Shown: positions 2,570 through 61,655 of the stretch, one piece after another
How positions within the stretch are numbered: the first letter of the stretch is position 1
Layout: every line of letters begins with the position of its first letter
Origin: a virus
Taxonomy: Duplodnaviria > Heunggongvirae > Uroviricota > Caudoviricetes
DNA length: 64,000 nt
Direction: 5' to 3' (one strand)
Virus record (IMG/VR): IMGVR_UViG_2531839402_000001
The notes under the pieces: model-generated
The model's input: the letters and a program-made list of their open reading frames with translations, nothing else
Told to the model about the DNA's origin: nothing
Database searches by the model: none
Position numbers and translations under genes: made by a program

Positions 2570-2630
2570 GTGTTTTTCCCTCTAAGTATCGCGTCATTAT
2601 TCTTACATAAAATAAGTATGTGGTTACCTA

Positions 2631-4314
2631 TTATTTTATGCGTTTGAAGACATACACACTGACAGTTATCCCCGTGTCATCAAACTCGCCTGTGAACGAC
2701 TTACCTTTGGCGTAGACGAAATTCTCCAGCATCATCCAGTTCAGGGTTGGTGAGTCCCCCGGCAAAACAGCAACAAGGCGCCCGCCGACTTTAAGATGCT
2801 CCAGCGCGGCCAGCGTATGCTCTCTGTGACGGCCAAGAGAGTAGGGCGGGTTCATGACGATTTTGTCGAACTGATAGCCTGCGTTGTCCTCAGACCACTT
2901 CATGAAGTCACAGCAGACCGTATTTGTGTACCCCTTGCCAAGCAGGATATCAGCGAAGAGAGGTGCGACTTCTATGCAGGTAACGTCTTCCGGATTGGCG
3001 TCGATGCAGGCCAACAGATCTCCGCGCCCGGCTTCAGGCTCCAGCAGCTTCTCACCTGGCTTCAGCTCGATGGCTCTGGCAACGTACTCCGCTATCAAAC
3101 GTGGGGTAGGGTAGAACTGGTGTGATTTTGTATCCGGTATTAAGCCGGTGGCCACAATCGTATTGAGCGTATGGCCGATCTCATACGGGAACTGCCAGTG
3201 CTTTTTCTCCTGCACGCCGCCAATGAAGTTCAGTGTGCGCTCAAGCTCTTCCACCTGTGACTTCTGTAGGTTGGAATCAGAGAAGTACCAGACGCCTTTG
3301 TCTTTGCTGAATCGCCCGTCGCGCAGCGCGGTACGAACCGGCTCGGAGATCGTCTTCTGGATTAACCCGAACTCTTTTGGTGCCCGTATTTTGGGTGCAG
3401 TACGGCATGGCGCCGGGATTGCTGCAGGCATACTGTAAGCCAGCACCTCATTCAGCTTCCAGGCCACGTCAGGATGTATTTCAAAGTGAACGTTGCCGTT
3501 CTTGAACATCTTCACGCGCATCAGGTTTCCGTCGACATTCATCCAGTCACCGGTCTGGCAGTCGTTTGCCCGGTACGCAGCTGATAGCATCTCAGTTGTG
3601 CGGTTGATGGTGATGAACTCTTTGTGTGCGAAGAAATGAAGCATGACGCGCAGGTCGTCGATGTAGTCCTCTTTCCGGTAGTTCACGCTGACGCTGTCCC
3701 GCCAGAACTCGGAAATGCAGTTGGCGATGATCAGACGCTCGCTAAAGCCGTTCGTCTTATTGGTCTTGTGGGCAGGACTCAGCGCTTTAAACAAGCCATA
3801 CACGCGCTCAGAGAGATATTTGTGCCTGTCATTCAGCAGATTGAGCATCGTTGGGATGACCGTTTCTGCTTTGAACTCCGGCACACCAACGAACTCCTTC
3901 ACCTTCATCTGGTAGCCGGTTCTGTCTGTTTTGATGGTCTCCTGCTTGCCCTCGATGAACTGCTCACGCCACTCGTCGCGGCGGGAAGCTGGCATGATCA
4001 GCAGAACGTTTGTCATATCCGTGACCTTCTTCCAGTACTCGGCCCAGATATTCTGTTTCACCCATTCCAGGTCGACTTTGTCCAGCCAGGCTCTGTTAAA
4101 GCGTGTGCGCTCGTCATCCGGCCGGTGGTTGAGTCGCAGCAGGCGGTTAATCATGTTGTGGCGTTCGTCGCCATAAACGAAGTCGTGAACCTGATGCATG
4201 AATGCGATCTCTTTCTCGCACTCGGCCACAATTTCGTGGATGACGTTCATTTCCTGCCGGTAGTCGATATCAGTGTTTGGGGTGATAGCGTCAATGATGG
4301 AAAGGGCTGTATTC
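2631..4314 (-). CDS. Orphan N6-adenine DNA methyltransferase with ~380-aa N-terminal extension
   Basis: C-terminal domain has the Rossmann SAM motif (LEPEAGRGDL) and the catalytic MNPPYS motif. The ORF track starts at a TTG (4334); the ATG at 4314 with GGTG RBS is more likely. The N-terminal 380 aa show no recognisable motif. Confidence 0.7.
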
Positions 4315-4705
4315 ATGATCACACCATTAAACAAATTGTTTTCTTATTGGTGTTATTTTCCCAAAGTTGAAAAGGCGTAAAAGCAGTATTCACAGGGGTT
4401 GTAGAGACGCTTAGAGACGCTAAATTGATAGTGTTCAAAGTTAATTGGTAATTCAATAAATTAAGAACGTAACCACCTTAAAATCTAAGGCTACAACCGC
4501 TGTCATTCATGCTTATTTTTTTCCTGAAGAACGCTCAGCTCCTAGATTAAGAAGTCATATTCTTGTGTAACCCGTTAAAAATGATACATTAATCTCCCCC
4601 CTCTTCGGGAAAACGGAAGAAGTTTGATGAGGATGGCATCAGGCAAATGGAACTCAAGTCTACAAAGGCCATTGCCCCCTCCTTTTAACGCTAAAAGGGT
4701 AATAC

Positions 4706-6775: not shown

Positions 6776-6781
6776 ATCACA

Positions 6782-6818
6782 ACGCAGGCTATAATATCTT
6801 ATTAGCCTGCGTTTTTAT
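6782..6818 (+). terminator. Rho-independent terminator after the ATPase-nuclease gene
   Basis: acgcaggct...agcctgcgt stem followed by TTTTAT. Confidence 0.55.
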
Positions 6819-6943
6819 CGAAAGTTTTACGAAGATGAAAACTCAATAAAAAACAAATTACAAAGTCCAGCCGTCATAAGTAAAATACAATATTCAATCC
6901 ATATTATTAGGGTATTGAGGAAGCTCCATTTCATGCAATAGCC

Positions 6944-7438
6944 TCAGTCACAGCAGAAGGAAGATCCGGAGTTGCAGGTCGAGCTAGAATCGTGTCCAGC
7001 AGCATCCCATCCAGAGAGACAGGAGGTCGTTCTGGCAGGGGTGTCGTCTGCAAGGTTGTGGTGGAAGTAGTTGTGTCCGGTATCAACAGACTCTGACCGG
7101 CTGGTACGGCTACCGCTGCCAGGGTTGCTAAAATTACTCCGTAGGCCATTGGCTTCAGTCGATTTCGTTGAAAATTTTCCATGAGAACTGTCCTTGTGTG
7201 CTTGGGATTCACGCAACACACGAGAGGCGACGGAATCACGCACCTTCCCCATGCCTACTGTCGCACCCAGATTTGCTATGGCGGTAGCTTGCGCATCAAT
7301 GCGCTTCTCCAGCTCAAACACTCGTTCTTCCAGTTCCGCAAGGCGTGCAGAAACACGACCGCTAAACAGCTCGGCCAGAACCAGGCGAATTGAACGGGGA
7401 CGTTTATTGAAAGAAGTGAAAGGCGTTTGACGTGCCAT
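6944..7438 (-). CDS. Hypothetical protein (N-terminal coiled coil); overlapped out of frame by a signal-peptide ORF (6931..7182)
   Basis: N-terminal 80 aa look protein-like (ARLAELEERVFELEKRIDAQ); the distal half is low-complexity S/T-rich. A second frame encodes MENFQRNRLKPMAYGVILATLAAVAVPAGQ (signal-peptide-like). Which frame is expressed is unresolved. Confidence 0.3.
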   Translation of the reverse strand: MARQTPFTSFNKRPRSIRLVLAELFSGRVSARLAELEERVFELEKRIDAQATAIANLGATVGMGKVRDSVASRVLRESQAHKDSSHGKFSTKSTEANGLRSNFSNPGSGSRTSRSESVDTGHNYFHHNLADDTPARTTSCLSGWDAAGHDSSSTCNSGSSFCCD

Positions 7439-7568
7439 TTGGATTCCATTCAGTGTCAGAAAGAGTGGCGGCTGGCCAAGCCAGCCGCCTTTTAGCGTTC
7501 CATCCTGGAACAGTACCTAACCGGTACTTCGTCATCCTGACGAACGGTAAGATACCTGATTTAAAATG

Positions 7569-7588
7569 ATAGGTAAATACCTACCTAT
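7569..7588. promoter_or_regulatory. Copy of conserved 20-bp palindrome ATAGGTAAATACCTACCTAT
   Basis: Member of a ~19-copy family; seen in sequence. Confidence 0.5.
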
Positions 7589-8189: not shown

Positions 8190-8786
8190 TTTGGCTCCAG
8201 AATCGCGCGCCGCGACGATTTTTTTCCCCTCGCGCGTGTGCGCACGCGTGCGTGTAAATATTAAAAATTTTTTAGAAAAGAAAAACCTACTTCCCAGAAC
8301 AGGTTTTAATAAAACCTGAACTGAACGAACGAAGTGAGTGAAGTTCACCTCGAACGAAGTGAGAGGTTGTCTTTTCAGGTAATACTCTCCCAGGGAGGTG
8401 AGTACAAAATTTCCTCACCAACCTGGTCGTTACATAACCTGAAAAGTTATGACCTAAGTCTACTGCCAGCTTAGGCTTGGGAAGTTATGGATGACAGCAC
8501 CCCAGAACCGAGATCTTCCCACACTTTATGAAGGGGAGTACTGGATTCAACCTCTCGAAACACTCCAGACTCGACAATCATAAAGTGACCCTTCTCTCTG
8601 CTCACTTTGGTTCCCCCTTCCCCAACCCCTAAACGGTGCCGGTTCTACGCTGGTAGTGAGCTTTTTTTAAACCTGACGCCAGTGACGCTATCCCCCACCC
8701 ATCAGGTCGAGCTGCCGGAATCAATCCGGAAAGCGGGTAGATTTTATCACTGGCGATCTGCGTTTTAAATGGTAAGTACTTACCAA

Positions 8787-9017
8787 TTATTTCGATTGAT
8801 TATTTTCTCGACCATGAAGCTGGACGTTCAGGGCAAACACCTCATTGATGAGTTCCCCTAACAGCTGCTCCACCAGCTCTTTGTGCTCGCCTGAATGAAG
8901 ACATTTGAGCGACCATTCGTAGAGACTGAAAGCCTTATCGCGATCTTTCATCATGTCGCGCACTTTGGCCAGAAAATCGCTCTCAACGAGCGCTACGACG
9001 TTCGTCGGGTATACCAT
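8787..9017 (-). CDS. Hypothetical small protein
   Basis: 76-aa ORF in operon context. Confidence 0.4.
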   Translation of the reverse strand: MVYPTNVVALVESDFLAKVRDMMKDRDKAFSLYEWSLKCLHSGEHKELVEQLLGELINEVFALNVQLHGRENNQSK

Positions 9018-9219: not shown

Positions 9220-9813
9220 TTACGCTGCCTTTTTACGTGGTCTCTTCTTCCTGACAACATTGGCAGGATCATAACCACCCAGCTTTTTCATCACCGCCAG
9301 CGGTATCTTGCTGATGGTGTGCCCAGCTTCCTGACAGTAGCCACGGAAGATAAGCAACATGCTGCCACCAGGGTTGATGTTCACCTCCACCAGCCCAAGT
9401 TCAACATCCGGCTCAACGAACGCCACGCGGCCGCCAGACAAGATGACGGTTTCGTTGGCGCATTCAGCCGCACGTTCGTACCACTGCGTATCGAGGGATT
9501 GTGGTATCAGCATGACCGTCGTCACTCCACGCGCCTGCTCGCGAATGGCTGCGTCTATCCAGGGGGTGATTTTGGAGTAGGGCGGGTTAAGGAACGCCAC
9601 AGTGCCAGGTTCTCCCCAGCTGCACTTGAGCGCATCACGCTCAACACCGATAAAGTTCGGCAGGAGAGCATTATCTTTGTTGCAGGCGACGTCCACATCG
9701 AACTTTACGCCTATGTAACGTTGGATGGCGACAAACAACCACTGCGGTGTGCGCCAAAGGTCGCGAAGAGAGGCATCACGCTCTCGCTTTTTGATTTTTT
9801 CGGCTGCGATCAT
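9220..9813 (-). CDS. Phage Dam-like N6-adenine DNA methyltransferase
   Basis: RTPQWLF...DVACN...NPPYS motif set typical of the phage N6A-MTase family. Confidence 0.7.
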   Translation of the reverse strand: MIAAEKIKKRERDASLRDLWRTPQWLFVAIQRYIGVKFDVDVACNKDNALLPNFIGVERDALKCSWGEPGTVAFLNPPYSKITPWIDAAIREQARGVTTVMLIPQSLDTQWYERAAECANETVILSGGRVAFVEPDVELGLVEVNINPGGSMLLIFRGYCQEAGHTISKIPLAVMKKLGGYDPANVVRKKRPRKKAA

Positions 9814-9825
9814 TACTTTGCTTTG

Positions 9826-9845
9826 ATAGGTAAATACTTACCTAT
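9826..9845. promoter_or_regulatory. Copy of conserved palindrome ATAGGTAAATACTTACCTAT, 12 bp 5' of the Dam-like MTase start
   Basis: Seen in sequence. Confidence 0.5.
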
Positions 9846-12158: not shown

Positions 12159-12162
12159 AAAG

Positions 12163-15879: not shown

Positions 15880-16056
15880 ACAAGATAAGTAAGTACATAC
15901 ATATTATTTTATACAAGTTTATCTGTCAGAAGTGTGTAAGGCTAGGAGGGGAGTAAAAAAAATGGTGGCTCTTAGGCCACCATTGCAATGAGCAATTAAG
16001 AACTTGGACAATAAAACACGCCCAGGCAATATATAATGATAAGTAGATACTTACAA

Positions 16057-16926
16057 TTATTTTTTTACCATCTCGTAAAGAGATGAGGCTTTCGCCTTCT
16101 CAACAAAGCGAGTCAGATCCACATCGCTGTAGGTTGGGGATTTGAGGATCTTGCCATCAGAAACTCTGAAGCCAATCATCATGTCAGTCCCTTCAGCGTG
16201 GCGGAAGCCCAGATCTTCCTTGTCGTATTTGCAATTCTCTACCGCCACACGACGCTCTTCGGCGTCAGCCGGCCACAGCTTGGTCATGTTGGAACGATGG
16301 ATTTCTGCCACCAGCTCAACAATATCGATACCGAGAAAATCAGCCAGGCGGTAGGTCATCATGCAGGCAACGTAGATTTTATTCATCACGCGGCGCAGCT
16401 CCTGCACCAATTCGGAATCGCTAATCGGCTTCGCTTCGAGTTTGTCAGCCAGCGCATTCAGCATTAATGCAGCTTCTTTTGCTTCTTCAAACGGGATGGC
16501 CATGTCGTCAAAGACCGTGTTGCCTGGAACCATGATGGTGTGGATGAAGCGATCAACACTCTGCTCTTGGGTGTAGTAGCTCATACCTGTAGAGATACCG
16601 CCTTTGATGGCCACCATTGTGCCGACGCCCACGTAAAGGAAGTCAGCCATCGCGTCCAGCAGTGCCGTGATATCCCCATTTTTGGCTGCCGGGATGCCCT
16701 CGGTAACTGCTTCTTCGTGGATCAGCTTGGCACGCAGACGCAGTAATGCCGGATCTGGAATGGCACGGCGTGGGTGCTGAAACAGTGTGTGGAACTGGTC
16801 AACCATCAAGTAGATGCTTTCCGTTGCCTTGCCAAAACCAGGATTCAACTCGTAAGGCTCAGGCTTAAATCCCACGAGTTTGTCTGCGGCAAGTTTCAGA
16901 TGATCGGTCAGTTTCGTAAATTTCAT
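16057..16926 (-). CDS. MazG/HisE-like all-alpha NTP pyrophosphohydrolase (putative)
   Basis: EExxE...D helix pattern (LIHEEAVTEG...DAMADFLYV); a copy of the conserved palindrome abuts the 3' end. Confidence 0.4.
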   Translation of the reverse strand: MKFTKLTDHLKLAADKLVGFKPEPYELNPGFGKATESIYLMVDQFHTLFQHPRRAIPDPALLRLRAKLIHEEAVTEGIPAAKNGDITALLDAMADFLYVGVGTMVAIKGGISTGMSYYTQEQSVDRFIHTIMVPGNTVFDDMAIPFEEAKEAALMLNALADKLEAKPISDSELVQELRRVMNKIYVACMMTYRLADFLGIDIVELVAEIHRSNMTKLWPADAEERRVAVENCKYDKEDLGFRHAEGTDMMIGFRVSDGKILKSPTYSDVDLTRFVEKAKASSLYEMVKK

Positions 16927-20620: not shown

Positions 20621-20640
20621 ATAGATAAGTACTTACCTAT
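20621..20640. promoter_or_regulatory. Copy of conserved palindrome ATAGATAAGTACTTACCTAT, ~45 bp 5' of nrdA
   Basis: Seen in sequence. Confidence 0.5.
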
Positions 20641-25200: not shown

Positions 25201-25428
25201 GTGTCTTTTCCTTTGTGGTTATTTTGATACAGATGTTAAGCGTGTTTGAGAGGCGAGCAACCCAGACAACACGGCACAGAAGAAAATCTACAGGCACACG
25301 ATTATGACAAAATATATAAGTAAGTGAATACCTATTTTATGAAGCGGCATAGATTTCTAAATGTTACAAGCCACTCTATAATCGCAGTCACTCATTGATG
25401 ACAACTAAACGAAAAAGGAGAACGGACG

Positions 25429-30268: not shown

Positions 30269-30310
30269 GATAGGTAGATACTAACTTATATATTTTTTTT
30301 GCTGTAAATA

Positions 30311-30586: not shown

Positions 30587-30654
30587 GTGTCTTCTCCTTG
30601 TTGGTAAGTACTTATTTATATTAATGTGCGCCATGCGGCGCACAATCATTGTGT

Positions 30655-32617: not shown

Positions 32618-32707
32618 GTGTTTCCTTTTGTCGTTTTGGTGTAGAAATGATAAGTAAGTGCTTATATATTTTCAAGTATAAAAAGGCGTCCAACGGACGC
32701 CTTGTGA

Positions 32708-36086: not shown

Positions 36087-36205
36087 GTATTTCTCCTTGT
36101 TGTGATTGTGGCCATTGGCGCTATGCGCGTTGGGCGTTCGTTTATTCGTGGCTCTTTCGAGCGAGAAGAATGATAGATCAGTACTTACTTACGATCTAGC
36201 ATAAA

Positions 36206-36637: not shown

Positions 36638-36857
36638 TTTGATAGGTTCCAGCTTATTTCTATATATAAATTTTATCATGAAAGAAATGAAGGATGGAGC
36701 TTATAGAAGGAAGAAGTTAGGGGGTAGGGTAGGTAAGTTGATGAAAACAGGGAGTGTTCTGATAATCTATAGCCGTTTTCTGCGGCCGTAGACGTCAGAA
36801 AATAGACAGTGTTGACACGCGCTCACACTATACCTATCATAATGACATCGGAGGAAA

Positions 36858-37109
36858 ATGAAATCACATCCGAATAAGCATATTCAAGAGGCCATTGAAT
36901 ACGCGTTGAGTAAAGGCTGGGTTTGGGTTCCAGCAGGTAAGTCAGCACATTGCTTCTGCAAGCTGCGCTGCGGCGATAAATCAGGTGAACATACAAGTCA
37001 CCACAGAAGTGTATGGTCGACTCCAGATGTACCGGAGCACCATGCCACGCAAATCAGGCAAGCGGTCGACCAGTGTGGCCGTATCAAAAGCCAGATGAGC
37101 AAAAAATAG
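36858..37109 (+). CDS. HicA-like small protein (putative toxin)
   Basis: Pattern KGWVWVPAGKSAHCFCKLR...SVWSTPDVPEHHATQIRQAV resembles the HicA G-W...G-S-H...KL...SV-xP-H...IR motif order. Weak. Confidence 0.35.
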   Translation: MKSHPNKHIQEAIEYALSKGWVWVPAGKSAHCFCKLRCGDKSGEHTSHHRSVWSTPDVPEHHATQIRQAVDQCGRIKSQMSKK

Positions 37110-37181: not shown

Positions 37182-37745
37182 ATGGCGCTTTATAACTTCA
37201 CTCTGACTCTCTCAGGCGTAACCTATGAGACCGAAGGATTGGAAGATGCGCTGTACGAAAGCGGCTGTGGCGATGCGATTGTTTGCGCATATGGAAACTC
37301 CGTCTATGTTGAGTTCGACCGCGAAGCCGAATCGCTGGATGCAGCCATTGCATCAGCGGTCGACAATATCGAATCTGCCGGTATCGGCGCGATTGTAGAA
37401 TCAGTCGACTCGGCCTTAGTTGGCCTGAGCGATGTAGCTGAAATGACGGGCATGTCCCGACAAGCAATTACCATGCTTAAAGATGGGCTTCGTGGTGGTG
37501 GCGACTTCCCTTGCCCTATCCAGAGAATCCAGGGACAGTCCCCGCTGTGGGATTGGGCTGATGTGGCTAACTGGCTTGAAGCCAATGGACGCCTTAAAGA
37601 AAACGCAGAGCTGGCACACAATGCTCGCGTATTAAGTAAGTGGAATTTGGCCCTTCGCAATAGCGTCTCAAAAGACTTTGTTGAGATTGAACATATCGCT
37701 TCTTCACTTATCGCACGTCGACGTCATCACGCCGAATGCGCATGA
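37182..37745 (+). CDS. Putative antitoxin/regulator: N-terminal HicB-like domain plus C-terminal AlpA/MerR-type HTH
   Basis: C-terminal LSDVAEMTGMSRQAITML...WDWADVANWLEANG is a typical AlpA/excisionase-type HTH. N-terminal ~100 aa are small and acidic. Confidence 0.4.
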   Translation: MALYNFTLTLSGVTYETEGLEDALYESGCGDAIVCAYGNSVYVEFDREAESLDAAIASAVDNIESAGIGAIVESVDSALVGLSDVAEMTGMSRQAITMLKDGLRGGGDFPCPIQRIQGQSPLWDWADVANWLEANGRLKENAELAHNARVLSKWNLALRNSVSKDFVEIEHIASSLIARRRHHAECA

Positions 37746-43149: not shown

Positions 43150-43245
43150 GTGTTTTTCCTTACTGTTTGTCGTTCGTGGGGTATATCTTATATAAATATA
43201 TTAGACTGTATAGTAAGTGATTACTTATTTTTACGGGTAAATCCA

Positions 43246-45618
43246 TTACCCAAGAATGATACGAGATAGTTCTGTGACGACTGACGGCCCTAACTCTTCT
43301 ACGCTGTTTACCAGTGCGTAATTTTTGTAGTAACGCCGTGGTGCGTCGGTCAGAACGCCGATAGCCATCAAATCGATGTCACTCAACGTCTCAATTTCTT
43401 TGATGACGGTTCGCAAATGCTGATGGAACCCGTCGCCTGCAGCACATGGCGCCCCGTCGCTCATAACCAGCATGATCTTCTTGTCCTCCATTCGCCCTGC
43501 AAACAGAGTCGCCAGCTGCGCGACGCTCTCACCATCGACGTTATTGAGCAGGGGGAATGTCTCACACACGCAGCCCATGCGGGCGCGGATCTCTGGAGAG
43601 TTGGCTTTCTCATTCCAGTTTTTGATAATGGGCAGCATTAGCGCCTCGAAACGAGTAAACCCGCGCTTCGACATGGTTTCATAATCTGGGCTACCAAACG
43701 TGGTAAAGCCGGTGATGATGTTAGGCACATTGATACGATCCAGAGCATCCGCAATGGTGTAGGCGCTTGCGATTGCCAGCTGAATCTTCCTGCCGCCCAT
43801 TGAGCCGGACAAGTCGATCACCTGCTGGACGCACGCGTTCACCGCTCTGTGGTCTTCTTTCTTGCGGAATACGCGGTCGTCGTTCATTGCCAGACGATAC
43901 AGGTTCGCGCCATGTATCCGCCCACGTCTCTGGCCTGGGATAAACTGAACTCGGTTGCGGCTGGCGATAGCTCGCTCCAGGTCTTTGGCCAGAGTCGAAG
44001 AAACGCCTGCTGACAGATGTTTTTCGATTTTCAGTTCAAAGAGCTTTCTGCCTTCCGGAACCATGCGGTAGCGATCGACCGGTGAGTGCATCGGGATTGC
44101 GCCGAACGTCTTTCTGGTGCGCTTTACATGCTCTTCAGCCTCATCAATCAACCCGATAAAGTCGTATGAACGATCGTATGGGCGATACTCAGAAAGTGAG
44201 GTGCTCATAAGCTCTTTGCTGATGGTGGCCGACAGTGCGTCTTCGGTCATTTCGCCTGTTCCGTCTTCCATCTCGTCGAGCGCCTTGAGTGCGTCCTCCA
44301 GAGTCATTTCATCCGGAGCAGGAACAAAGCCTGACTCACTGTCTTCAGGCGCTTCCGCAGCATCCTCATTTTCTTTACCTTCGCCGTCTGTTTGATCGGC
44401 GGCATCATCTTCCTCTTCGCCTTCTCCTTCCGACTCCCCGTGACCGGCATCGGAGTCTTCGCCGTCATCACTATCACTATCCCCATCGCCAGCGGCGCCA
44501 GAGCCATAACCATCGGAGTCATCGGCGTCTTCGCGAATGCCATCACCAGGCGTTGGAGAGCCAGTGTCATCACTACCACCTTCGTCATCAGAATCACCTG
44601 ATTCCATGCCGGCATCATCGGATTCTGAGGTGTCTCCTGATTCCTCTTCGCCTGCTTCTGTATATTTACTTTCTGTATCACTAATTTCTTTATCTTCTGT
44701 AGGTAAGTTCTTATCTACTGATTCAGGCAAATCAGAATCCCCAGACTCTTCCTCTTCTGAGGCATCATCTTCTTGCTCTTCCTTGTCGTCGTCTTCGCCT
44801 TTGGTACGCTTTGGTGCTGATTCACTATGAGTCGGTTCGTCACCGGCTTCTGGGGTTTCCTCTGACTCATCCTCACTCTTCGACGGCTTCCTAGCAGACG
44901 ATTTAAGCTCTGGTAATTTGCCCTCTGGCTTGTCTTTCATATCCTGCATGATTTGGGCGATAGCAGCTGCTACCTTCACGCAGTCTTCTGTGTTCGACAT
45001 ATTGCGAACGGCCACGTCGATACCATGCTCTTTGAGCAAGGCCACAGGCTTCTCGATGAGGTGCCAGTGTTCTTCCATAAAGTCGATGAAAGGGCTTTGG
45101 CCATCCCAGGCGCGAACGACCGGGCAAAGGAAGAATTTCAGGAACAATTCACGCTGGTTGCCGTGGCAGATTGAAACCGCCTCTGAAACTTTGCCCTTGA
45201 AGTATTTGTCGATCACCACGTTCTGTGTGGCCAGCAAATTGCGACGAGTTCCGTTGAATACCTGTCCCATTCTGCGTTCAATAAAAACGTCTTCCAGCGC
45301 GTTCCAAAGCCCGGTAGACGGAGCCTTTCCTTTCTCGCGCATCTTCATTGCGACTTTCGGATCAGTAAAGAGGATATGGGCTACCTCATGGTCGAGAAAA
45401 CCACGTACTGCGTTCATGAGGGTTGGTGACGCGTCGTCCGGTATAGATGGGATGTTTACCAGCACTGGTTCGCCGCGCCGGTTGTAGCGGACATATGCTT
45501 CATTACCTCGCTCTGCAACAGGTATCTGTTTGCCTGATAGCATCGCTACAACTCGTTTTACGCAGTCGCGAAAGTCCTGTACCTCTTTCAGCACAGATCT
45601 GGTCATGGCTTTGGACAT
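43246..45618 (-). CDS. CobT-like vWA-domain protein with long acidic low-complexity insert
   Basis: C-terminal vWA/MIDAS motif (VIDLSGSMGG); D/E/S-rich central region. ATG at 45618 with AAGGAAA RBS preferred. Confidence 0.6.
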   Translation of the reverse strand: MSKAMTRSVLKEVQDFRDCVKRVVAMLSGKQIPVAERGNEAYVRYNRRGEPVLVNIPSIPDDASPTLMNAVRGFLDHEVAHILFTDPKVAMKMREKGKAPSTGLWNALEDVFIERRMGQVFNGTRRNLLATQNVVIDKYFKGKVSEAVSICHGNQRELFLKFFLCPVVRAWDGQSPFIDFMEEHWHLIEKPVALLKEHGIDVAVRNMSNTEDCVKVAAAIAQIMQDMKDKPEGKLPELKSSARKPSKSEDESEETPEAGDEPTHSESAPKRTKGEDDDKEEQEDDASEEEESGDSDLPESVDKNLPTEDKEISDTESKYTEAGEEESGDTSESDDAGMESGDSDDEGGSDDTGSPTPGDGIREDADDSDGYGSGAAGDGDSDSDDGEDSDAGHGESEGEGEEEDDAADQTDGEGKENEDAAEAPEDSESGFVPAPDEMTLEDALKALDEMEDGTGEMTEDALSATISKELMSTSLSEYRPYDRSYDFIGLIDEAEEHVKRTRKTFGAIPMHSPVDRYRMVPEGRKLFELKIEKHLSAGVSSTLAKDLERAIASRNRVQFIPGQRRGRIHGANLYRLAMNDDRVFRKKEDHRAVNACVQQVIDLSGSMGGRKIQLAIASAYTIADALDRINVPNIITGFTTFGSPDYETMSKRGFTRFEALMLPIIKNWNEKANSPEIRARMGCVCETFPLLNNVDGESVAQLATLFAGRMEDKKIMLVMSDGAPCAAGDGFHQHLRTVIKEIETLSDIDLMAIGVLTDAPRRYYKNYALVNSVEELGPSVVTELSRIILG

Positions 45619-45748
45619 GAGAATTTCCTTGTTATTAAAACAATTTGTTTTCTGATGTGCGTAATTTATCACTGTACGAACAGGCAACTAAGCTGTTCGT
45701 ACAGGCATCTAAGCTGTTCGTACAGGCATCTATAGGCAGGAATGTATT

Positions 45749-45961
45749 TTAAATGGTTCTCACGGCAAGGGAGCCGCAACCGGTATTGATGAGAGTGAAA
45801 TGTTTATTTTTTAGCTCAAAAGTGAAAACCGTCGTATCAACCATCTCCACGGGAAGCTCTTCAGATTCTAGTTCTGTCAGGATCGTCGCGACGCCATCCA
45901 GTCCAATCGCATATGCGTGTCCAACCTCAAGGGCGGTCAATTTAGAAGTTATATTTTTCAT
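45749..45961 (-). CDS. Hypothetical small protein
   Basis: 70-aa ORF. Confidence 0.3.
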   Translation of the reverse strand: MKNITSKLTALEVGHAYAIGLDGVATILTELESEELPVEMVDTTVFTFELKNKHFTLINTGCGSLAVRTI

Positions 45962-46224
45962 TTCATATCATCCAACTGAACACATTTGAAAGTTCGGCAA
46001 TACTACTACCTATTGTATCAATATGGAATGCACCTATATCAGATACGTCTTACTTTTTTCTGTAAGCGAATGGTGACAAATTGCTTAAAAACCATAGTAT
46101 AATGGCGGTACACCGGGGTTTTGTGCCTATCGAAATTAAATAGATAAGTCTTTACAACCCTGGCCTTTGCTGTAATATCAGTAAGCACTTACCAGAGATA
46201 AACAAAACACGCAAGGTTCACTAC

Positions 46225-46611
46225 ATGGCTACCAACGAAACAGAGATCAAACAAGGTCGCTACGCAGCTTACATTGACTCGTTAATCACAATCTCGCCTA
46301 AAAGTCAGGCTACCATTGCCAAAGAGGTTGGGTACAAGAACGCCAACAACCTCTCCCTCATCAAAAGCGGCAAAATCCCACTTCCAGTCGATAAGGTTCG
46401 AGCTTTAGCCGAAGCACTGGAGGCAGATCCGGTTCGACTGATGCTGATGGTTCTGGAAGAACGTCATCCTGAGCTGCTTGAGTTTTTTCGCGAAGAGGGC
46501 ACTGCACCTCTCTCCGCTGATGAAAAACTCGTTCTAGAAGCGTTCCGTAACCGTTTTGACGGTCAACAGGGTGCGTCAGAAAAGGTGGTAGAAGCCATCA
46601 AGTCACTGTGA
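46225..46611 (+). CDS. XRE-type HTH DNA-binding protein (putative repressor/regulator)
   Basis: HTH QATIAKEVGYKNANNLSLIKSGK. Divergent from the minus-strand module across an AT-rich promoter region. Confidence 0.5.
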   Translation: MATNETEIKQGRYAAYIDSLITISPKSQATIAKEVGYKNANNLSLIKSGKIPLPVDKVRALAEALEADPVRLMLMVLEERHPELLEFFREEGTAPLSADEKLVLEAFRNRFDGQQGASEKVVEAIKSL

Positions 46612-47709: not shown

Positions 47710-47881
47710 CGTCCACTCACTGAGTGAAACCTTTTACTGTATGTATGAACAGTATATTAGGCTTAAGTTTTTGTATGATCAACCATAAAATAGCCTGTTT
47801 TGTACAATGATTCCATACTTAATAGGTATGGAATCATTTAAGGCTGGAAATTTAAATTCTGAGATTTTATTAGCGTGATTG

Positions 47882-50619: not shown

Positions 50620-50739
50620 ATTGAGTCCTTTCAAGTGAGTCACTGAAAGAACTATACCCGTAAATAATAGGTAAGTCATTACTTATTATTTGTGGTTCTG
50701 GACATCCCCATCTAGGGATGGGAAATCCCATCCAACGGC

Positions 50740-53385: not shown

Positions 53386-53460
53386 TGGCGATGGTGGGTG
53401 GACTCGAACCACCGACCAGTTGATTAAAAGTCAACCGCTCTACCACTGAGCTACACCATC
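53386..53460 (-). tRNA. tRNA-Lys (anticodon UUU)
   Basis: Cloverleaf folded by hand: acceptor GATGGTG/CACCATC, D-arm GCTC-AGTGGTA-GAGC, anticodon arm GTTGA-CTTTTAA-TCAAC, T-arm GGTGG-TTCGAGT-CCACC, discriminator G, encoded CCA. Confidence 0.8.
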
Positions 53461-53975: not shown

Positions 53976-54470
53976 CTTCATCGAATAGGGCATGGGTGGT
54001 GCAACATGCCCTATCCTGCGTTCTGCAAGGGGTGAGTTTGGAGATCGGAAATTATTGTACGTTAAGCCTGTTTTTTGAACAGATCGCGCTATCGCAATAG
54101 GGTGTACTCCTGCACTATACGGCATTTAGCCTGTATGTTTGGGTAATGAGAAAACCTAAATGCGACAGCGTGAGCGCAATAACTTAAATGCGATAGTCAG
54201 TGACAATAAATCAATCAGTTACCAATCAGAAACGGTTAAATTATGTTCTTAACGTACAATAATTTCCGTTTCCCAAACCGACCCCTGCAATCACACTCGC
54301 TCAGTGTGTCCCATTTCGGTGACGAGGCTGGAAACTGACCTCGCTGGTGTTTGGCTTCTTAGGCTACTGCCAGGTACGTATCTTCGTTTGCAGTTATATT
54401 TAACGTTCAAACAGTCGCGTCTCAACGAAAACAAATGAATCTTATACATAATAGATAAGTAAGTAAATAC

Positions 54471-54776
54471 TTATTTTTCTGTAACTCGTTCAGTTGCTAT
54501 CTTTTTGATCAAGCTCACCTTCTGTTCTGGCGTTCTCGTGATGATGGCCGTAAAACGCTTCGCTTGAATAGTGATAGTTTCGTTCTCCTTCAGTTCGCCG
54601 TAGTGAGTCTCCAGCAGAGAACCCAGGCGCCACAGACCGTCATCTATGCGTTTATGGCTGGCAAATCTGATCAGCAGTAGCTTTACGATTAACTGACCAA
54701 TGTAAAAGGCATATCCGAAGCCGGCCGCCACAAGGTAGGTTGCCAGCCACCAGTCGAATGAGGTCAAATTGCTCAT
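54471..54776 (-). CDS. Small membrane protein
   Basis: 101 aa with an N-terminal hydrophobic helix pair. Confidence 0.4.
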   Translation of the reverse strand: MSNLTSFDWWLATYLVAAGFGYAFYIGQLIVKLLLIRFASHKRIDDGLWRLGSLLETHYGELKENETITIQAKRFTAIITRTPEQKVSLIKKIATERVTEK

Positions 54777-55296: not shown

Positions 55297-56619
55297 TCAG
55301 TCTTTATCTCCAATACGGTCTTCGGTATCTCGCAGACATTTCGGCCACTTCAGACGTGGGTGGCGTAAGCTACCGTCTGGCGTTTTCTCATGGCAGTGAA
55401 CCTCAACGATGCGTCCACGATACTTCTCCTGATTGTTCCAGATCTCATCCAGGTACTTATGCTTGATACCGCTGGCACGAACGATGACGCCGTTCTCCAG
55501 ACGAATCACTATCTTACCCAGCGTATGCGCAAAGCCAGAGTCCGGGTCGCCTGGCTCGAAGTCGATGATTTCACCGTCTTCGGAATCCTCGTCTTTCAGC
55601 TTCCACCAGCTGCGGGTGCGTTTGAACTCGTAAACAGAATCCGGATCTTTGCCCATCTCCCCCTCTTCGTTCTCGTCCAGGCGCTTCATGAAGCGTTCGA
55701 TAAAGTCTTCATGGCTATGGATGATGTAGAACGGATGCAGGTGGACATCTTGCGCGTAATCTTCCCCGCAAGTGTTGCGGAACAACGCCACCAGCATAGC
55801 CAGGCGCTCTTTCAGCTTCATGCCGGTCTTCAGGTACTCTTTGCTTTTTGCCTGAGCACGCCACTCCGGTAAGAAGAAATCGAAGATGTGGTAAACGGCA
55901 CCAATGGCTTTCACGTTCTTCTTGCGAAGTGCCGACACGGACTGGTTGAACGTACCTGCAGTACCCTCACCATCGAAAAAGATATGCTTGAAACCGGAGA
56001 GTCTGCCTCGCTCAAGCATGGCTGGTTTAAGGTGATCGAGTGACGTAATCGGATTGCCGGTACGCGTCAGGAAGTTCACCTCTTCCTCGTCAACGATGAC
56101 TTCGCAGATAACCCGGAGACCATCGAGTTTGAGGCTGCCGATCATTGGCCACTTGGCCTTTGGATTTGGTTTAAATGGGTATTTGTCGCCTTTCTCCTTG
56201 TACGGAGACGCCAGCTGTACCTCAAACTTCGGAATTGGGTTTTCGAACACCTTGTTGCACAGGCTGATACCGACGCCGGCTTTCGGATCTTTCAGCAGGA
56301 AGCGACGAAACACGTCCTGCCCGTCAGCGCACATTGAGGCAACGAGTGATTCGACAGCAGTAATGGCCGCGTTCCCGGTCAGTTCGCGCGCCGCCAGCTT
56401 CTCCAGCAGCTCGACTACCTTCTGGTCGCTGGGTACGGAAGTATCGAGTGGCTCGGCCACTTTGTACTTCTTCACACCGAATCGAATGAATGGGTTGAGC
56501 ATTAGCGAGACCATGCTCTGCTCAAATTCATCAAGGTTGGCCAGTGCCTCTTTCTTGGCGTTGGTTCCCATCGTTTTTATGGCATCCAGCTTGTGCTTTA
56601 GGGCGATCAGTTTTTCCAT
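55297..56619 (-). CDS. ATP-dependent DNA ligase
   Basis: Adenylation motif I (SLKLDGLRVI), motif IV-like (IFFDGEG), motif V-like WWKLK. Confidence 0.8.
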   Translation of the reverse strand: MEKLIALKHKLDAIKTMGTNAKKEALANLDEFEQSMVSLMLNPFIRFGVKKYKVAEPLDTSVPSDQKVVELLEKLAARELTGNAAITAVESLVASMCADGQDVFRRFLLKDPKAGVGISLCNKVFENPIPKFEVQLASPYKEKGDKYPFKPNPKAKWPMIGSLKLDGLRVICEVIVDEEEVNFLTRTGNPITSLDHLKPAMLERGRLSGFKHIFFDGEGTAGTFNQSVSALRKKNVKAIGAVYHIFDFFLPEWRAQAKSKEYLKTGMKLKERLAMLVALFRNTCGEDYAQDVHLHPFYIIHSHEDFIERFMKRLDENEEGEMGKDPDSVYEFKRTRSWWKLKDEDSEDGEIIDFEPGDPDSGFAHTLGKIVIRLENGVIVRASGIKHKYLDEIWNNQEKYRGRIVEVHCHEKTPDGSLRHPRLKWPKCLRDTEDRIGDKD

Positions 56620-56625
56620 TAGTGT

Positions 56626-57141
56626 TTAACCTCCATCGGTCGCTCGGGAGTTTTCATGTGTTTTTTTGGTTGCTTCTTCAATGAGTGCCGCGTACACGTC
56701 AGTGACGGGCGCCAGTGAATCGGTGGACGTGGTTTCGGGTTTGGCTGATTCTGTTTTCTTCGTGCGTTTAACCAGACTGTTAATCGTCATGGTGTTGCGC
56801 TTCCGGGTAAGCGTTCTGGCGTGGTCGTTTTGCTCTTCCACTTCTTTGATAAGCGCAGCCATATCGATGAAGTAGAGTTGTTCGCCTTTGCGGATCTCTT
56901 CGACCATCATCTTCAGCGCCTGGCATTTTCCAGCAGCAATGGCCGCAGCGCAGGACTGGAACGATGTAGCCGGGAGACGCTTCTCTTTGTAGGCGAGGAT
57001 GGTGTGCTGGCAGACTGTATAGCTGCAATGGGCCTCATGGCCGTTGATCTTCACTTCCGGGCAGCGCAGCGAATAACCGTTGTTTCCGGAGATAGACGGG
57101 ATTTTCGACAAATCTGTTCTTGTGGACATGCTTCTAACCAT
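56626..57141 (-). CDS. Hypothetical protein (Cys/His-rich N-terminus)
   Basis: 171-aa ORF; a palindrome copy abuts its start codon. Confidence 0.4.
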   Translation of the reverse strand: MVRSMSTRTDLSKIPSISGNNGYSLRCPEVKINGHEAHCSYTVCQHTILAYKEKRLPATSFQSCAAAIAAGKCQALKMMVEEIRKGEQLYFIDMAALIKEVEEQNDHARTLTRKRNTMTINSLVKRTKKTESAKPETTSTDSLAPVTDVYAALIEEATKKTHENSRATDGG

Positions 57142-57209
57142 AGTCGTGTACTTACTTATTGAGCGCAGTTTAAAAAAGCCCCACCAGGGGCTAAATGGTT
57201 TATCGAGGC

Positions 57210-58004: not shown

Positions 58005-58084
58005 AAAGGTTCCTCAATTCCTTCTTCGCGCATATTCTTACAGAAAAATAAGTATGTATCTACTTATCATTAGCGGCGTGCAAT

Positions 58085-59206: not shown

Positions 59207-59352
59207 TTACCGCAGTTTTTAAAAGGCAATATCTTGATAAGCCTCGTTTTTTGAATACCATAAAGGCTCATGTGTTTTTCCTTTTGTGATTAAACAAAAG
59301 GTAATTTTTAAGGGCGTGGGGCTGTTATCCGTCTTTGCCCCACGCCTATTTT

Positions 59353-60693: not shown

Positions 60694-60757
60694 GTGTTTG
60701 TTATCCTTTGATGCTTAAACAAGTTGTTTTCTAATCGTAAAAATATGGAGCAGGCAA

Positions 60758-61483
60758 TCAACACAGTCGCCGTGCTTCTTCCAGTTCTTCCGGGTAATGG
60801 GCATAGATAACGCGCTCGGGCACCAGCTCCATCAACCAGACAGCAGAGAAGATGGTGCGGATACGCTTATCACGGGTGATGTGCTTCAAACGCTCCAGAA
60901 CCCATTCAAAGTAACGTTCCTGAATTGGGTCATGCTGCATGTCTCCTAAGTGCTTAAAACTCACTACAGAGTCATCCAGACGCGTTCCCGCACGATTGGC
61001 GAGTTTGCTTTCGAAGATCTCAATCAGTTCTGGCTGCCAGAGATGCTGAGGGCGAGGTAATTTGTCCCAGAGCCGGCGCGCAGCTGCAGAGAGAACAGTT
61101 GATATAAAATAGTCATAAGAGCAGCAATATCTATCTGCAAACTGGCGAGCTTTCCAAAGGGATGTTTTGTTCACCGCCGATAGCTCTTGGTAAGGCAAGC
61201 GTTTCAGGCCAGTACTAAATGGCGCCGTCTCGAAATGCTCGCGGCCATGAGACAGCATGATCTGTGAGTATGCACGCTTATAGGCTTCCGTGAACAGGCA
61301 GGTTGCCATCAGCGGGTGCATGTCGCGATAGTCAAACCACTTCGTATCAAAGAGCTCAGCCTCCCCCTGGCATCGTGAAAGACCGATGTTTTCCGCAACC
61401 CACTTGTCCATGGCCGCTGTGTCCCACTCCATCATGAAGTCGTACTGGCCGTTGTTTATGGTGTCAAAAAAGATCTGGCTCAT
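60758..61483 (-). CDS. Hypothetical protein
   Basis: 241-aa ORF. Confidence 0.45.
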   Translation of the reverse strand: MSQIFFDTINNGQYDFMMEWDTAAMDKWVAENIGLSRCQGEAELFDTKWFDYRDMHPLMATCLFTEAYKRAYSQIMLSHGREHFETAPFSTGLKRLPYQELSAVNKTSLWKARQFADRYCCSYDYFISTVLSAAARRLWDKLPRPQHLWQPELIEIFESKLANRAGTRLDDSVVSFKHLGDMQHDPIQERYFEWVLERLKHITRDKRIRTIFSAVWLMELVPERVIYAHYPEELEEARRLC

Positions 61484-61655
61484 GCTCTCACCGATAGGTA
61501 ACTACTTACTTATTGCTTGGTAGATCATAGCGACTGGGAAGCAGTTTGGAAAGAGGAATCAGAAGGGTGTGTACTGGAGTGTTCTTGTATCAAAGACCTG
61601 CTTCTGTATATTATTATACTTCCAGTATTAAAATTACTACAGAAGCAGGCAAATA

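What the first reader, a model, noticed from the sequence alone, without database searches (positions are those of the whole stretch)
2610..61515. About 19 copies of a conserved 20-bp perfect palindrome (ATAGGTAAGTACTTACCTAT) placed 0-60 bp 5' of start codons of minus-strand genes
Copies (some degenerate) lie at ~2610, 7569, 8771, 9826, 15884, 16038, 20621, 25314, 30269, 30601, 32649, 36173, 43210, 46178, 50666, 54451, 57137, 58046 and 61493. The consensus is a perfect palindrome centred on GTAC. Nearly all copies are intergenic and usually followed by a T-run on the plus strand. Several directly abut a start codon with no Shine-Dalgarno between (30269, 57137, 15884, 9826); others sit ~45 bp upstream. 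Such density and positional regularity suggest a phage-specific promoter/operator recognised by a phage-encoded factor (for example the XRE HTH at 46225), or a hairpin acting as processing/terminator-antiterminator signal. It does not match T4 or P1 promoter consensus I know.
Basis: seen in the sequence. Interest (0 to 1): 0.6.

Follow-up and report, generated by a model that had tools for sequence, protein, structure and literature searches.

The report
Repressor binding sites gating phage-plasmid genes
A 20-base mirror-symmetric DNA word sits in front of some 20 gene blocks of this SSU5-type phage-plasmid, and it is most likely the docking site of the element's own small repressor, which keeps the virus silent while it lives as a plasmid.

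Summary
The window has no exact ATAGGTAAGTACTTACCTAT. It has 7 copies with at most 3 mismatches (0 expected) and about 20 in-register copies with at most 6.

The window is an SSU5/pHCM2-family phage-plasmid, 99.9% identical to a K. oxytoca plasmid. The whole 112-kb element holds 25 strong copies, 23 of them intergenic (p=1e-16). They precede main-strand lytic genes, early and late alike.

The two half-sites (ATA[A/G]GTAAGT) decay independently: 228 complementary pairs against 226±6 expected. Four of 12 copies cannot form an RNA hairpin. It is therefore a double-stranded DNA site for a dimer, not a hairpin.

The best candidate reader is the XRE protein at 46225-46611, which has a 434-Cro-like fold:
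- It is as widespread in the family as the capsid gene.
- Its Cyrano orthologue is reported as expressed in lysogens.
- Its own canonical promoter is overlapped by a degenerate copy.
- Its recognition helix changes where the half-site changes (Cronobacter, an E. coli variant, Acinetobacter, Aeromonas) and stays the same where the half-site does.

Most likely this is a P1-C1-like set of dispersed operators on lytic promoters that lack a -35 element. Binding, repression and transcription starts are untested. It is a new member of a known kind, of moderate interest.

The parts
2612..2631 (.). Dyad motif copy. It overlaps the stop codon of the DUF4942 gene and lies 42 nt upstream of the 242-aa gene 1841-2569(-).
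   Evidence: plasmid site 38500, PWM 34.3
7569..7588 (.). Dyad motif copy (2 mismatches). It overlaps the rnhA stop codon. An intrinsic terminator follows at 7489-7467(-), then gene 6944-7438(-).
8768..8787 (.). Dyad motif copy (3 mismatches). A stretch of about 580 nt without an annotated gene follows before rnhA.
9826..9845 (.). Dyad motif copy (1 mismatch), 12 nt upstream of the adenine methyltransferase gene 9220-9813(-).
15885..15904 (.). Dyad motif copy, 17 nt upstream of the thymidylate synthase gene.
16039..16058 (.). Dyad motif copy overlapping the stop codon of the pyrophosphohydrolase gene. The terminator 15984-15961(-) follows.
20621..20640 (.). Dyad motif copy (1 mismatch), 46 nt upstream of nrdA, with a terminator-like hairpin 20614-20591(-) in between.
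   Evidence: The same arrangement occurs in Cronobacter.
25316..25335 (.). Dyad motif copy, 115 nt upstream of the SbcD-like gene. Its upstream flank forms TTTAGA-16-TAAAAT.
30270..30289 (.). Dyad motif copy, 1 nt upstream of the ATG of a 59-aa gene.
30600..30619 (.). Dyad motif copy, 13 nt upstream of a 91-aa gene. The Shine-Dalgarno sequence AAGGAG lies in the gap.
32650..32669 (.). Dyad motif copy, 13 nt after the terminator 32703-32683(-) and 32 nt before a 66-aa gene.
36173..36192 (.). Dyad motif copy, 86 nt upstream of the gp32-like SSB gene.
43209..43228 (.). Degenerate dyad motif copy between the CobT-like and CobS/MoxR-like genes.
   Evidence: PWM 21.4
44699..44718 (.). Weak motif-like copy inside the CobT-like coding sequence.
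   Evidence: PWM 16
46177..46196 (.). Degenerate copy ATCAGTAAGCACTTACCAGA lying on the -10/start region of the XRE gene's promoter. Putative autoregulatory operator.
46151..46178 (+). Sigma-70-type promoter TTTACA-16-TAATAT of the XRE gene, conserved in five lineages.
46225..46611 (+). XRE/434-Cro-fold HTH protein (128 aa). Proposed reader of the motif and lysogeny repressor. Orthologue of Cyrano CYRAN_45.
50667..50686 (.). Dyad motif copy (3 mismatches), 47 nt upstream of phoH.
54455..54474 (.). Dyad motif copy overlapping a stop codon. tRNA-Lys (53386-53460, -) lies about 1 kb downstream.
57140..57159 (.). Degenerate dyad copy, 17 nt after the terminator 57192-57177(-) and 10 nt before a 167-aa gene.
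58048..58067 (.). Dyad motif copy, 17 nt after the primase gene and 43 nt before the 264-aa gene.
61494..61513 (.). Dyad motif copy (2 mismatches), 10 nt upstream of the 241-aa gene 60758-61483(-).

Best explanation
The motif is a 20-bp dyad-symmetric operator in double-stranded DNA, with half-site ATA[A/G]GTAAGT and half-site centres about one helical turn apart.

A dimer of the element's own XRE-family (434-Cro-fold) regulator, encoded at 46225-46611, most likely binds it. In the plasmid-prophage state this protein is made from its own sigma-70 promoter, which carries a weaker copy of the site (autoregulation). It occupies about 25 high-affinity copies spread over the whole 112-kb phage-plasmid.

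Each copy lies at the head of a main-strand (lytic) transcription unit. These units cover replication, recombination, nucleotide metabolism, head, tail and lysis genes. The A/T-rich upstream flank of each copy supplies a -10-like hexamer (nAnnAT at -4..+2). The dyad would then lie over the transcription start, and bound repressor would block RNA polymerase. Loss of the repressor would open all units at once. The family is inducible by mitomycin C and ciprofloxacin.

**Shown:** the enrichment, the placement, the symmetry, the lack of hairpin selection, conservation of the motif across the SSU5 supergroup, and covariation with the XRE helix.

**Inferred:** binding by XRE, repression, and promoter activity with the proposed start position.
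For: **1. Enrichment.** 7 copies with at most 3 mismatches against 0 expected. In the whole plasmid, 25 copies score 20 or more against a top score of 19.5 in 20 shuffles.

**2. Placement.** 23 of 25 strong copies are intergenic (p=1e-16). They precede main-strand genes in both the early and late regions. The same pattern is seen in SSU5 (26 copies) and Cyrano (24 copies).

**3. A protein site, not a hairpin.**
- Information content is mirror-symmetric.
- Deviations in the two halves are independent: 228 Watson-Crick pairs observed against 226±5.8 on shuffling halves, p=0.39.
- RNA folds range from 0 to -13.7 kcal/mol, and 4 of 12 are no better than shuffles.

**4. The XRE protein as reader.**
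- It is a core family gene, found in 1004 plasmids against 955 with the capsid gene, with the same host taxa.
- Its model (pLDDT 82) superposes on 434 Cro (rmsd 1.9 Å over 63 columns) and on C.AhdI.
- Its promoter TTTACA-16-TAATAT is overlapped by a conserved degenerate copy.

**5. Covariation of helix and half-site.**

| Lineage | XRE recognition helix | Half-site |
|---|---|---|
| Window, E. coli L132, K. pneumoniae FF979, L144, Photorhabdus (XRE down to 44-52% identity) | NANNLSLIKSGK, NANNISLIKSGR, NPNILSLIKKGR, KANNLSMIKSGK | ATA[AG]GTAAGT type |
| Cronobacter JZ38 | NANNLSNIKTGR | ATAGGTAGnT (position 8 G in 33/40 vs 3/48, p=6e-14) |
| E. coli contig L142 (XRE 80% identical overall) | YQNQVSFIKSGK | [GA]TA[TA]GTA (position 4 T p=0.001; position 1 G p=5e-4) |
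| Acinetobacter pAF-673 | NQNMVSFIVRGK | ATTAGTAAGC |
| Aeromonas pKAM329_1 | QTSMLSMIKKGT | nTCAGTAArY |

A rival candidate, the 88-aa winged-helix protein, has an identical recognition helix in the standard and Cronobacter lineages.

**6. Expression.** The orthologue CYRAN_45 is listed among the genes expressed in the LF82 lysogen (10× local background) and is labelled a putative repressor (PMC9928086).

**7. Directionality.** The upstream flank is more conserved than its mirror: A at -3 in 50/61 copies against 33/62, p=0.001; Acinetobacter alone 24/28 against 13/28. A11 is invariant in 17/17 copies.
Against: - No binding, repression or transcription-start data exist for any family member.
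- The covariation rests on about three or four lineage events and is confounded by phylogeny, because every protein diverges in those lineages.
- In L142 the copy on the XRE promoter keeps the standard sequence rather than the new GTATGTA type.
- L144 has a helix change (N to I) without a visible motif change, though only 4 sites were available.
- Phage SSU5 has no XRE gene yet keeps all 26 copies. The sites may therefore have a function of their own, for example as promoters, or the loss may be recent.
- No -35 element is enriched at the sites: 2.78 against 2.44 matches. Promoter activity is thus unproven.
- The -10 register is ambiguous. In Acinetobacter the XRE-promoter copy sits in the spacer, with TATAAT on the other flank.
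- Three copies are followed directly by terminators.
- The Cyrano lysogen data do not discriminate. One of 22 first-downstream genes is expressed, against about 2.5 expected by chance.
Confidence: 0.55

Rival explanations
1. The motif is part of an activator-dependent promoter, like P1 late promoters (a -10 hexamer plus an inverted repeat in place of a -35). A phage-encoded dimeric activator, not necessarily XRE, would bind the dyad centred near -20 and recruit host RNA polymerase to a -10 formed by the downstream flank (TATCAT at motif positions 18-23).
For: - No -35 element is found at the sites.
- A -10-like hexamer follows the dyad: TATCAT in about 10 of 17 window copies, TTGAAA-17-TATCAT at 32650, and TATAAT after the dyad in about 10 of 28 Acinetobacter copies and several Aeromonas copies.
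- P1, a phage-plasmid of similar size, has 11 late promoters with a conserved 9-bp inverted repeat bound by Lpa (PMC10695390).
- SSU5 keeps the sites without XRE.
- A conserved 88-aa winged-helix protein is encoded just before the late genes.
Against: - Several start codons and Shine-Dalgarno sequences lie 1-17 nt after the dyad. A start about 7 nt beyond a -10 at positions 18-23 would exclude them from the transcript.
- The upstream flank, not the downstream one, is the better conserved.
- The helix of the 88-aa winged-helix protein does not change where the motif changes.
- No Lpa-like family was detected among the proteins scanned.
- The same motif on early and late genes gives no temporal logic for a late activator.
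Confidence: 0.2
2. The dyad is the site of another conserved DNA-binding protein of the element. Candidates are the two ParB-N-domain proteins, which would act as a KorB-like global regulator, or a nucleoid, partition or packaging factor. The XRE covariation would then be a by-product of shared phylogeny.
For: - Two ParB-N proteins are conserved in all four clades compared (36-42% identity).
- A motif copy always lies directly upstream of them, at plasmid 52163, Acinetobacter 39946, Aeromonas 90379 and Cyrano 105107.
- From general knowledge, KorB of RK2 binds 12 dispersed palindromic operators.
Against: - Pfam sees only the ParB_N domain in these proteins, and no HTH was recognised.
- The copies track gene starts on one strand throughout the genome, not a centromere-like cluster.
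- The helix-specific replacement in L142 (XRE 80% identical overall, 5 of 7 helix residues changed) coincides with a motif shift. Drift alone does not easily explain this.
Confidence: 0.12
3. The motif acts as an RNA or single-strand hairpin: an intrinsic terminator, an antiterminator target, an RNase processing site or a 5' stabiliser in polycistronic transcripts.
For: - The consensus is a perfect palindrome, and some copies fold well (-13.7 kcal/mol at 7569).
- 14 of 25 copies lie within 17 nt of, or overlap, the preceding stop codon.
- A T-run follows on the plus strand at about half the copies.
Against: - There is no excess of complementary pairs over independent half-sites (228 against 226±5.8).
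- 4 of 12 copies have no hairpin better than shuffles.
- The stems are A/T-rich, and the T-run is on the strand opposite to the genes.
- Separate, strong G+C-rich terminators already exist beside several copies.
- Sequence, not structure, is what is conserved, and it changes in step across all copies of a lineage.
Confidence: 0.05

Closest known systems
Bacteriophage P1 C1 repressor and its dispersed operators
   Same: Both are phage-plasmids of about 100 kb. In both, one repressor is proposed to hold many scattered lytic transcription units silent through about 20 copies of one operator placed at promoters. In both, the repressor gene has its own operator.
   Different: - P1 operators are asymmetric 17-mers and C1 is not an XRE protein (from general knowledge). 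Here the site is a 20-bp dyad and the candidate has a 434-Cro fold.
- In P1 the late genes are controlled indirectly through Lpa. Here the same site also precedes the portal, scaffold, tail and holin genes.
434/lambda-type Cro and CI repressors, and restriction-modification controller (C) proteins such as C.AhdI and C.Esp1396I
   Same: They bind as dimers to dyad operators that overlap core promoters, and they autoregulate.
   Different: Those proteins act at one or two loci with 3-6 operators. Here about 25 operators are spread over 112 kb. The half-site is 10 bp, and the protein has an extra helical tail of about 60 residues and no peptidase domain.
P1 late promoters (Lpa box)
   Same: Both have many promoters without a -35 element that carry a conserved inverted repeat next to a -10-like hexamer in a phage-plasmid (PMC10695390).
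   Different: Here the repeat is 20 bp rather than 9 bp. It occurs on early genes as well, no Lpa relative was seen, and the better-conserved flank places the dyad over the start site rather than at -22.
KorB/OB global regulon of plasmid RK2
   Same: A palindromic operator is repeated about a dozen times across a replicon and coordinates many operons (from general knowledge).
   Different: KorB is a ParB-family protein that can act at a distance. Here the sites are promoter-proximal and the covarying protein is an XRE HTH.

Membership tests
Dispersed-operator master-repressor regulon (P1 C1 type) | Many copies of one operator scattered over the genome at the heads of lytic transcription units | tested here: met
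   25 strong copies, 23 of them intergenic, before main-strand genes. The same holds in SSU5 and Cyrano.
Dispersed-operator master-repressor regulon (P1 C1 type) | The cognate repressor is encoded by the element and expressed in the lysogen | tested here: inconclusive
   The XRE gene is core to the family. Its orthologue CYRAN_45 is listed as expressed in a lysogen and called a putative repressor (PMC9928086). Repressor activity was never tested.
Dispersed-operator master-repressor regulon (P1 C1 type) | The operator overlaps the core promoter (-10 or start site) | tested here: inconclusive
   This is clear only for the XRE promoter. At lytic sites there is a -10-like flank but no -35. No transcription-start data exist.
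Dispersed-operator master-repressor regulon (P1 C1 type) | The repressor is homologous to P1 C1 | tested here: not met
   The candidate is an XRE/434-Cro-fold protein. It therefore works like the P1 system but is not a member by descent.
XRE/434-Cro-type HTH dimer with a dyad operator | Five-helix lambda-repressor-like DNA-binding domain | tested here: met
   AlphaFold model with pLDDT 82. 434 Cro superposes at rmsd 1.9 Å over 63 columns (TM 0.78) and C.AhdI at 1.6-1.7 Å. phrog_8 E=2e-11. Pfam HTH_31 scores only E=0.003, below its cut-off.
XRE/434-Cro-type HTH dimer with a dyad operator | Dyad-symmetric site whose halves are each selected toward a consensus | tested here: met
   Symmetric information profile. 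Half-sites degenerate independently.
XRE/434-Cro-type HTH dimer with a dyad operator | Recognition helix and operator change together | tested here: met
   Nine lineages were compared: three or four changes and five conserved cases. The test is not corrected for phylogeny.
XRE/434-Cro-type HTH dimer with a dyad operator | Direct binding of the protein to the site | not testable with these tools
   Needs EMSA, footprinting or ChIP.
Intrinsic terminator or RNA hairpin element | A stable stem kept by compensatory changes, with a U-run 3' on the transcribed strand | tested here: not met
   No covariation. 4 of 12 copies do not fold. The T-run is on the opposite strand.
P1 late promoter (Lpa-dependent) | A -10 hexamer plus an inverted repeat centred near -22, with no -35 | tested here: inconclusive
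   There is no -35. TATCAT at positions 18-23 occurs in about 10 of 17 copies, but the upstream flank is the better conserved.
P1 late promoter (Lpa-dependent) | An Lpa-family activator is encoded | not tested
   No Lpa-like hit appeared among the roughly 30 proteins scanned. No dedicated search was made.
Phage RNA-polymerase promoter (T7 or N4 type) | The element encodes its own RNA polymerase | tested here: not met
   No RNA polymerase appears in the annotation of the complete plasmid, SSU5 or Cyrano. A sigma-like gene exists only in the Acinetobacter clade.

The most novel reading that the evidence does not exclude
One 128-residue XRE repressor directly gates essentially every lytic transcription unit, early and late, of a 110-kb phage-plasmid. 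It does so through about 25 operators centred on transcription starts. Lineages of the family have repeatedly recoded the whole operator set together with one or a few residues of the recognition helix: Leu to Asn with A·T to G·C at half-site position 8 in Cronobacter, and a swapped helix with GTATGTA half-sites in an E. coli variant. This would be immunity-type switching in a dispersed regulon, not at a single switch region.
Probability: 0.4. Interest if true: 0.6.

Novelty: new member of a known kind. Interest (0 to 1): 0.5.

Why it matters
SSU5/pHCM2/pMT1-type phage-plasmids occur in about a thousand sequenced plasmids of Klebsiella, E. coli, Enterobacter, Salmonella Typhi, Yersinia pestis and Acinetobacter. 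Some carry resistance genes (PMC9600943). Their lysis-lysogeny control is essentially uncharacterised.

If the reading is right, it would:
- name the repressor and give its complete operator map;
- supply a predicted promoter set;
- offer a simple sequence read-out of immunity type (half-site variant plus helix variant);
- make induction, superinfection immunity and copy-number control directly testable.

The regulon-wide co-change of operator and helix is also a clean natural case for studying how a dispersed regulatory code evolves.

Tried and rejected
- **Sigma-70 promoter with a fixed -35.** The information profile upstream of -6 is flat. The best -35 match is no better than background.
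- **Hairpin or terminator.** Rejected on covariation and folding.
- **Phage sigma factor as reader.** The Acinetobacter relative encodes a sigma-70-like protein next to dnaE (Pfam Sigma70_r2 E=0.003). It has no counterpart in this plasmid, in SSU5 or in the Aeromonas relative.
- **88-aa winged-helix protein** (plasmid 55337-55603; LexA_DNA_bind E=8e-4). Its helix is unchanged where the motif changes.
- **187-aa excisionase/MerR-like DNA-binding protein** (37182-37745). It is only 66% identical between this plasmid and SSU5, which share the motif, and it is absent from the distant clades.
- **FljA-like RNA-binding protein** (Pfam Flag1_repress). It is absent from the Acinetobacter and Aeromonas relatives, and the RNA-level reading is disfavoured.
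- **Literature.** No paper holds GTAAGTACTTAC. Searches on SSU5/pHCM2 plus promoter, palindrome or repeat gave nothing on the motif. The D6/SSU5-supercluster paper and the P1 genome paper were not held.
- **Scan of viral contigs with the 14-mer core**. It gave mostly chance hits and was not used.
- **Scan of genome contigs with the XRE alignment**. It returned only 5 loci, because the search pattern was the helix itself.
- **P0084** turned out to be a chromosomal island, not this family.
- **Cyrano lysogen expression**. Consistent with repression, but not discriminating.


Full report
**What the window is.** Megablast places it in the SSU5/pHCM2 family of phage-plasmids. It is 96.6% identical to phage SSU5 over 74% of a 20-kb probe. 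It is 99.9% identical to a 111,771-bp K. oxytoca plasmid, NZ_CP064109.1. The window is the reverse complement of that plasmid. Its minus strand is the main strand, carrying replication, recombination and nucleotide-metabolism genes.

**Checking the observation.** The exact 20-mer does not occur in the window.
- 7 copies have at most 3 mismatches, against 0.00 in 100 shuffles.
- About 20 in-register copies have at most 6 mismatches, including all 19 listed positions.
- One unlisted copy lies inside the CobT-like gene (44699).
- The copy at 46177 precedes the plus-strand XRE gene.

Aligned in gene orientation, the conserved block runs from -5 to +24. Its information content is nearly mirror-symmetric and nothing is conserved further upstream. 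A matrix scan of the complete plasmid finds 25 copies scoring 20 or more. The best of 20 shuffles scored 19.5. Of these, 23 are intergenic although 84% of the plasmid is annotated as coding (p=1e-16).

The copies also occur in the late region. They lie at the terminase/portal junction, before the scaffold gene, 8 nt after the major capsid gene (a perfect 24-bp palindrome), before the tail genes and before the holin gene. Gaps to the next start codon run from 1 to 171 nt, with two much longer cases. Fourteen of 25 copies touch or nearly touch the preceding stop codon.

**DNA site or RNA hairpin?** If hairpin formation were selected, deviations from consensus in the two arms should compensate. 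They do not. There are 228 complementary pairs in 25 copies, against 226±5.8 when right halves are dealt out at random (p=0.39). Folding energies of 12 copies range from 0 to -13.7 kcal/mol, and 4 fold no better than shuffles. Separate G+C-rich terminators stand beside several copies. The motif therefore behaves as a double-stranded site for a symmetric dimer.

**Depth of conservation.** SSU5 has 26 copies and Cyrano has 24. Relatives whose capsid protein is only 54-59% identical carry the same kind of element at equivalent places:
- Acinetobacter pAF-673: ATTAGTAAGCGCTTACTAAT, about 28 copies.
- Aeromonas pKAM329_1: (GA)TCAGTAArynyTTACTGA, about 20 copies.
- Cronobacter JZ38: every copy reads ATAGGTAGyTArCTACCTAT.

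The core GTA is invariant and the other positions change lineage by lineage, symmetrically and in all copies together.

**Who reads it.** Conserved non-enzymatic proteins were listed by tblastn across four clades.

The XRE gene at 46225-46611 stands out for several reasons.
- It occurs in 1004 plasmids with the same host spectrum as the 955 that hold the capsid gene.
- It always sits beside the integrase, and faces away from the first early operon (a small gene, then CobT-like, MoxR/CobS-like and dnaE).
- It matches phrog_8 "transcriptional regulator".
- Its model (pLDDT 82) has a 434-Cro/C-protein fold plus a helical tail.
- Its promoter TTTACA-16-TAATAT (46151-46178) is conserved in five lineages. 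The degenerate copy 46177-46196 begins inside its -10 hexamer.

The recognition helix tracks the half-site.
- Five lineages keep both the helix NANN(L/I)S(L/M)IK and the half-site ATA[AG]GTAAGT, although the proteins are down to 44-52% identical overall.
- Cronobacter has L to N and S to T in the helix. Half-site position 8 turns from A (36/48) to G (33/40; p=6e-14).
- An E. coli contig (L142) has an XRE that is 80% identical overall but carries the helix YQNQVSF. It shows GTATGTA-type half-sites (position 4 T p=0.001; position 1 G p=5e-4).
- Acinetobacter and Aeromonas have further helices and further outer-position changes.

The 88-aa winged-helix protein has the same helix in the standard and Cronobacter lineages. 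The sigma-like gene is confined to the Acinetobacter clade. The 187-aa DNA-binding protein is variable and not universal.

In E. coli LF82 the orthologue CYRAN_45 is listed among the few Cyrano genes expressed in the lysogen and is called a putative repressor. Cyrano is induced by ciprofloxacin (PMC9928086). SSU5-like elements are induced by mitomycin C (PMC9600943).

**How it probably works.** A repressor made in the lysogen, with sites in front of the silent lytic units, points to repression.

The flanks carry a directional signal. The upstream A at -3 is kept in 50 of 61 copies, against 33 of 62 for its mirror position (p=0.001). In Acinetobacter alone the figures are 24/28 against 13/28. 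This gives a hexamer nAnnAT at -4..+2, in the same register as the -10 of the XRE promoter. A start would then fall near the dyad centre, where A11 is invariant. Such a start also keeps the Shine-Dalgarno sequences and start codons that lie 1-17 nt after the dyad inside the transcript.

These points remain inferences, and there are reasons for caution.
- No -35 is enriched.
- A second -10-like hexamer on the downstream flank is common: TATCAT at positions 18-23 in the window, and TATAAT in Acinetobacter and Aeromonas.
- The Acinetobacter XRE promoter appears to use that other register.
- Three copies are followed at once by terminators (7569, 16039, 20621).

**Weak points.**
- There are no binding or start-site data.
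- The covariation rests on few events and is not corrected for phylogeny.
- The L142 autoregulatory copy is still of the standard type.
- SSU5 lacks XRE but keeps the sites.
- The Cyrano lysogen expression list is compatible with repression but not discriminating: 1 of 22 first-downstream genes is expressed, against about 2.5 expected.

**Comparison and novelty.** Functionally this is closest to P1's C1 regulon of dispersed operators. The difference is a dyad site and an XRE-fold protein, so it is not a member of that family by descent. The sites also extend onto late genes, which P1 controls through Lpa (PMC10695390). No paper in the library contains the motif. I rate it a new member of a known kind, of moderate interest. 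The regulon-wide recoding of operator and helix is the most interesting aspect.

Noticed in passing
window 1781, 4329, 18184, 31504, 45638, 60717 (13-mers, + strand coordinates): A second conserved intergenic element. It is the palindrome AAACAANTTGTTT, preceded by aCCAAcaAGA and by a -10-like hexamer 8-10 nt further up. It lies 12-42 nt before the start codons of nrdB, the DUF4942 gene, the CobT-like gene, dnaB and others. The window has 6 copies with at most 1 mismatch, against 0.29 expected. The full plasmid also has copies before the TerS-like and ParA-like genes, and SSU5 has 11. It may mark a second promoter/operator class with a conserved leader.
   Followed up: partly
window 45672-45734: Three tandem 21-bp repeats, each holding the 12-bp palindrome CTGTWCGWACAG. 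They lie between the small 70-aa gene (45749-45961, -) and the CobT-like gene.
   Followed up: no
window 47735-47754 and 1706-1725: Two LexA-box-like sequences, against 0 expected.
- TACTGTATGTATGAACAGTA lies 26 nt upstream of the integrase gene. That gene converges on and overlaps the 3' end of the XRE gene, so SOS-driven antisense transcription into the repressor gene is conceivable.
- TACTGTATATTTAAACAGTT lies just upstream of a 67-aa ORF.
   Followed up: no
window 7489-7467, 15984-15961, 20614-20591 (minus strand): Strong intrinsic-terminator-like hairpins lie directly downstream of the motif copies 7569, 16039 and 20621. The last sits only 12 nt before the nrdA start codon, and this arrangement is conserved in Cronobacter. 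The first two would give RNAs of about 90-110 nt if the copies are promoters.
   Followed up: no
window 36812-36840 (+), genes 36858-37109 and 37182-37745 (+): A near-consensus sigma-70 promoter, TTGACA-17-TATCAT (11 of 12 matches), precedes a plus-strand pair: an 83-aa protein and a 187-aa excisionase/MerR-like DNA-binding protein (phrog_2620). These two proteins are only 47% and 66% identical to their SSU5 counterparts, while the neighbouring genes are 98-99% identical. That is the pattern expected of an exchangeable regulatory module.
   Followed up: partly
plasmid NZ_CP064109.1 49106-49636 (-), outside the window (L002): A FljA-like protein (Pfam Flag1_repress, E=1e-86; weak Hfq match) is encoded on the strand opposite to the lytic genes. 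It is conserved in SSU5, Cyrano and Cronobacter.
   Followed up: no
L127 43891-44556 (-), Acinetobacter pAF-673: A sigma-70-family gene as annotated by NCBI (Pfam Sigma70_r2 E=0.003) lies between the MoxR-like gene and dnaE in the first early operon. It has no counterpart in the Enterobacterales or Aeromonas relatives.
   Followed up: partly
window 45712-~50000 compared with SSU5: Phage SSU5 lacks the whole XRE-integrase-YafO-PhoH block of this element. It has a tRNA and other genes there instead. This fits SSU5 being a repressor-less variant.
   Followed up: partly
window 53386-53460 (-): tRNA-Lys (anticodon UUU) lies in an otherwise gene-poor stretch of about 1.3 kb downstream of motif copy 54455.
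   Followed up: no
window 8190-8767; Cyrano 78477-78791: The motif copy at 8768 is followed by about 580 nt with no annotated gene. In Cyrano the equivalent stretch holds the 44-aa CYRAN_81. It is the only gene directly downstream of a motif copy that is listed as expressed in the lysogen.
   Followed up: no
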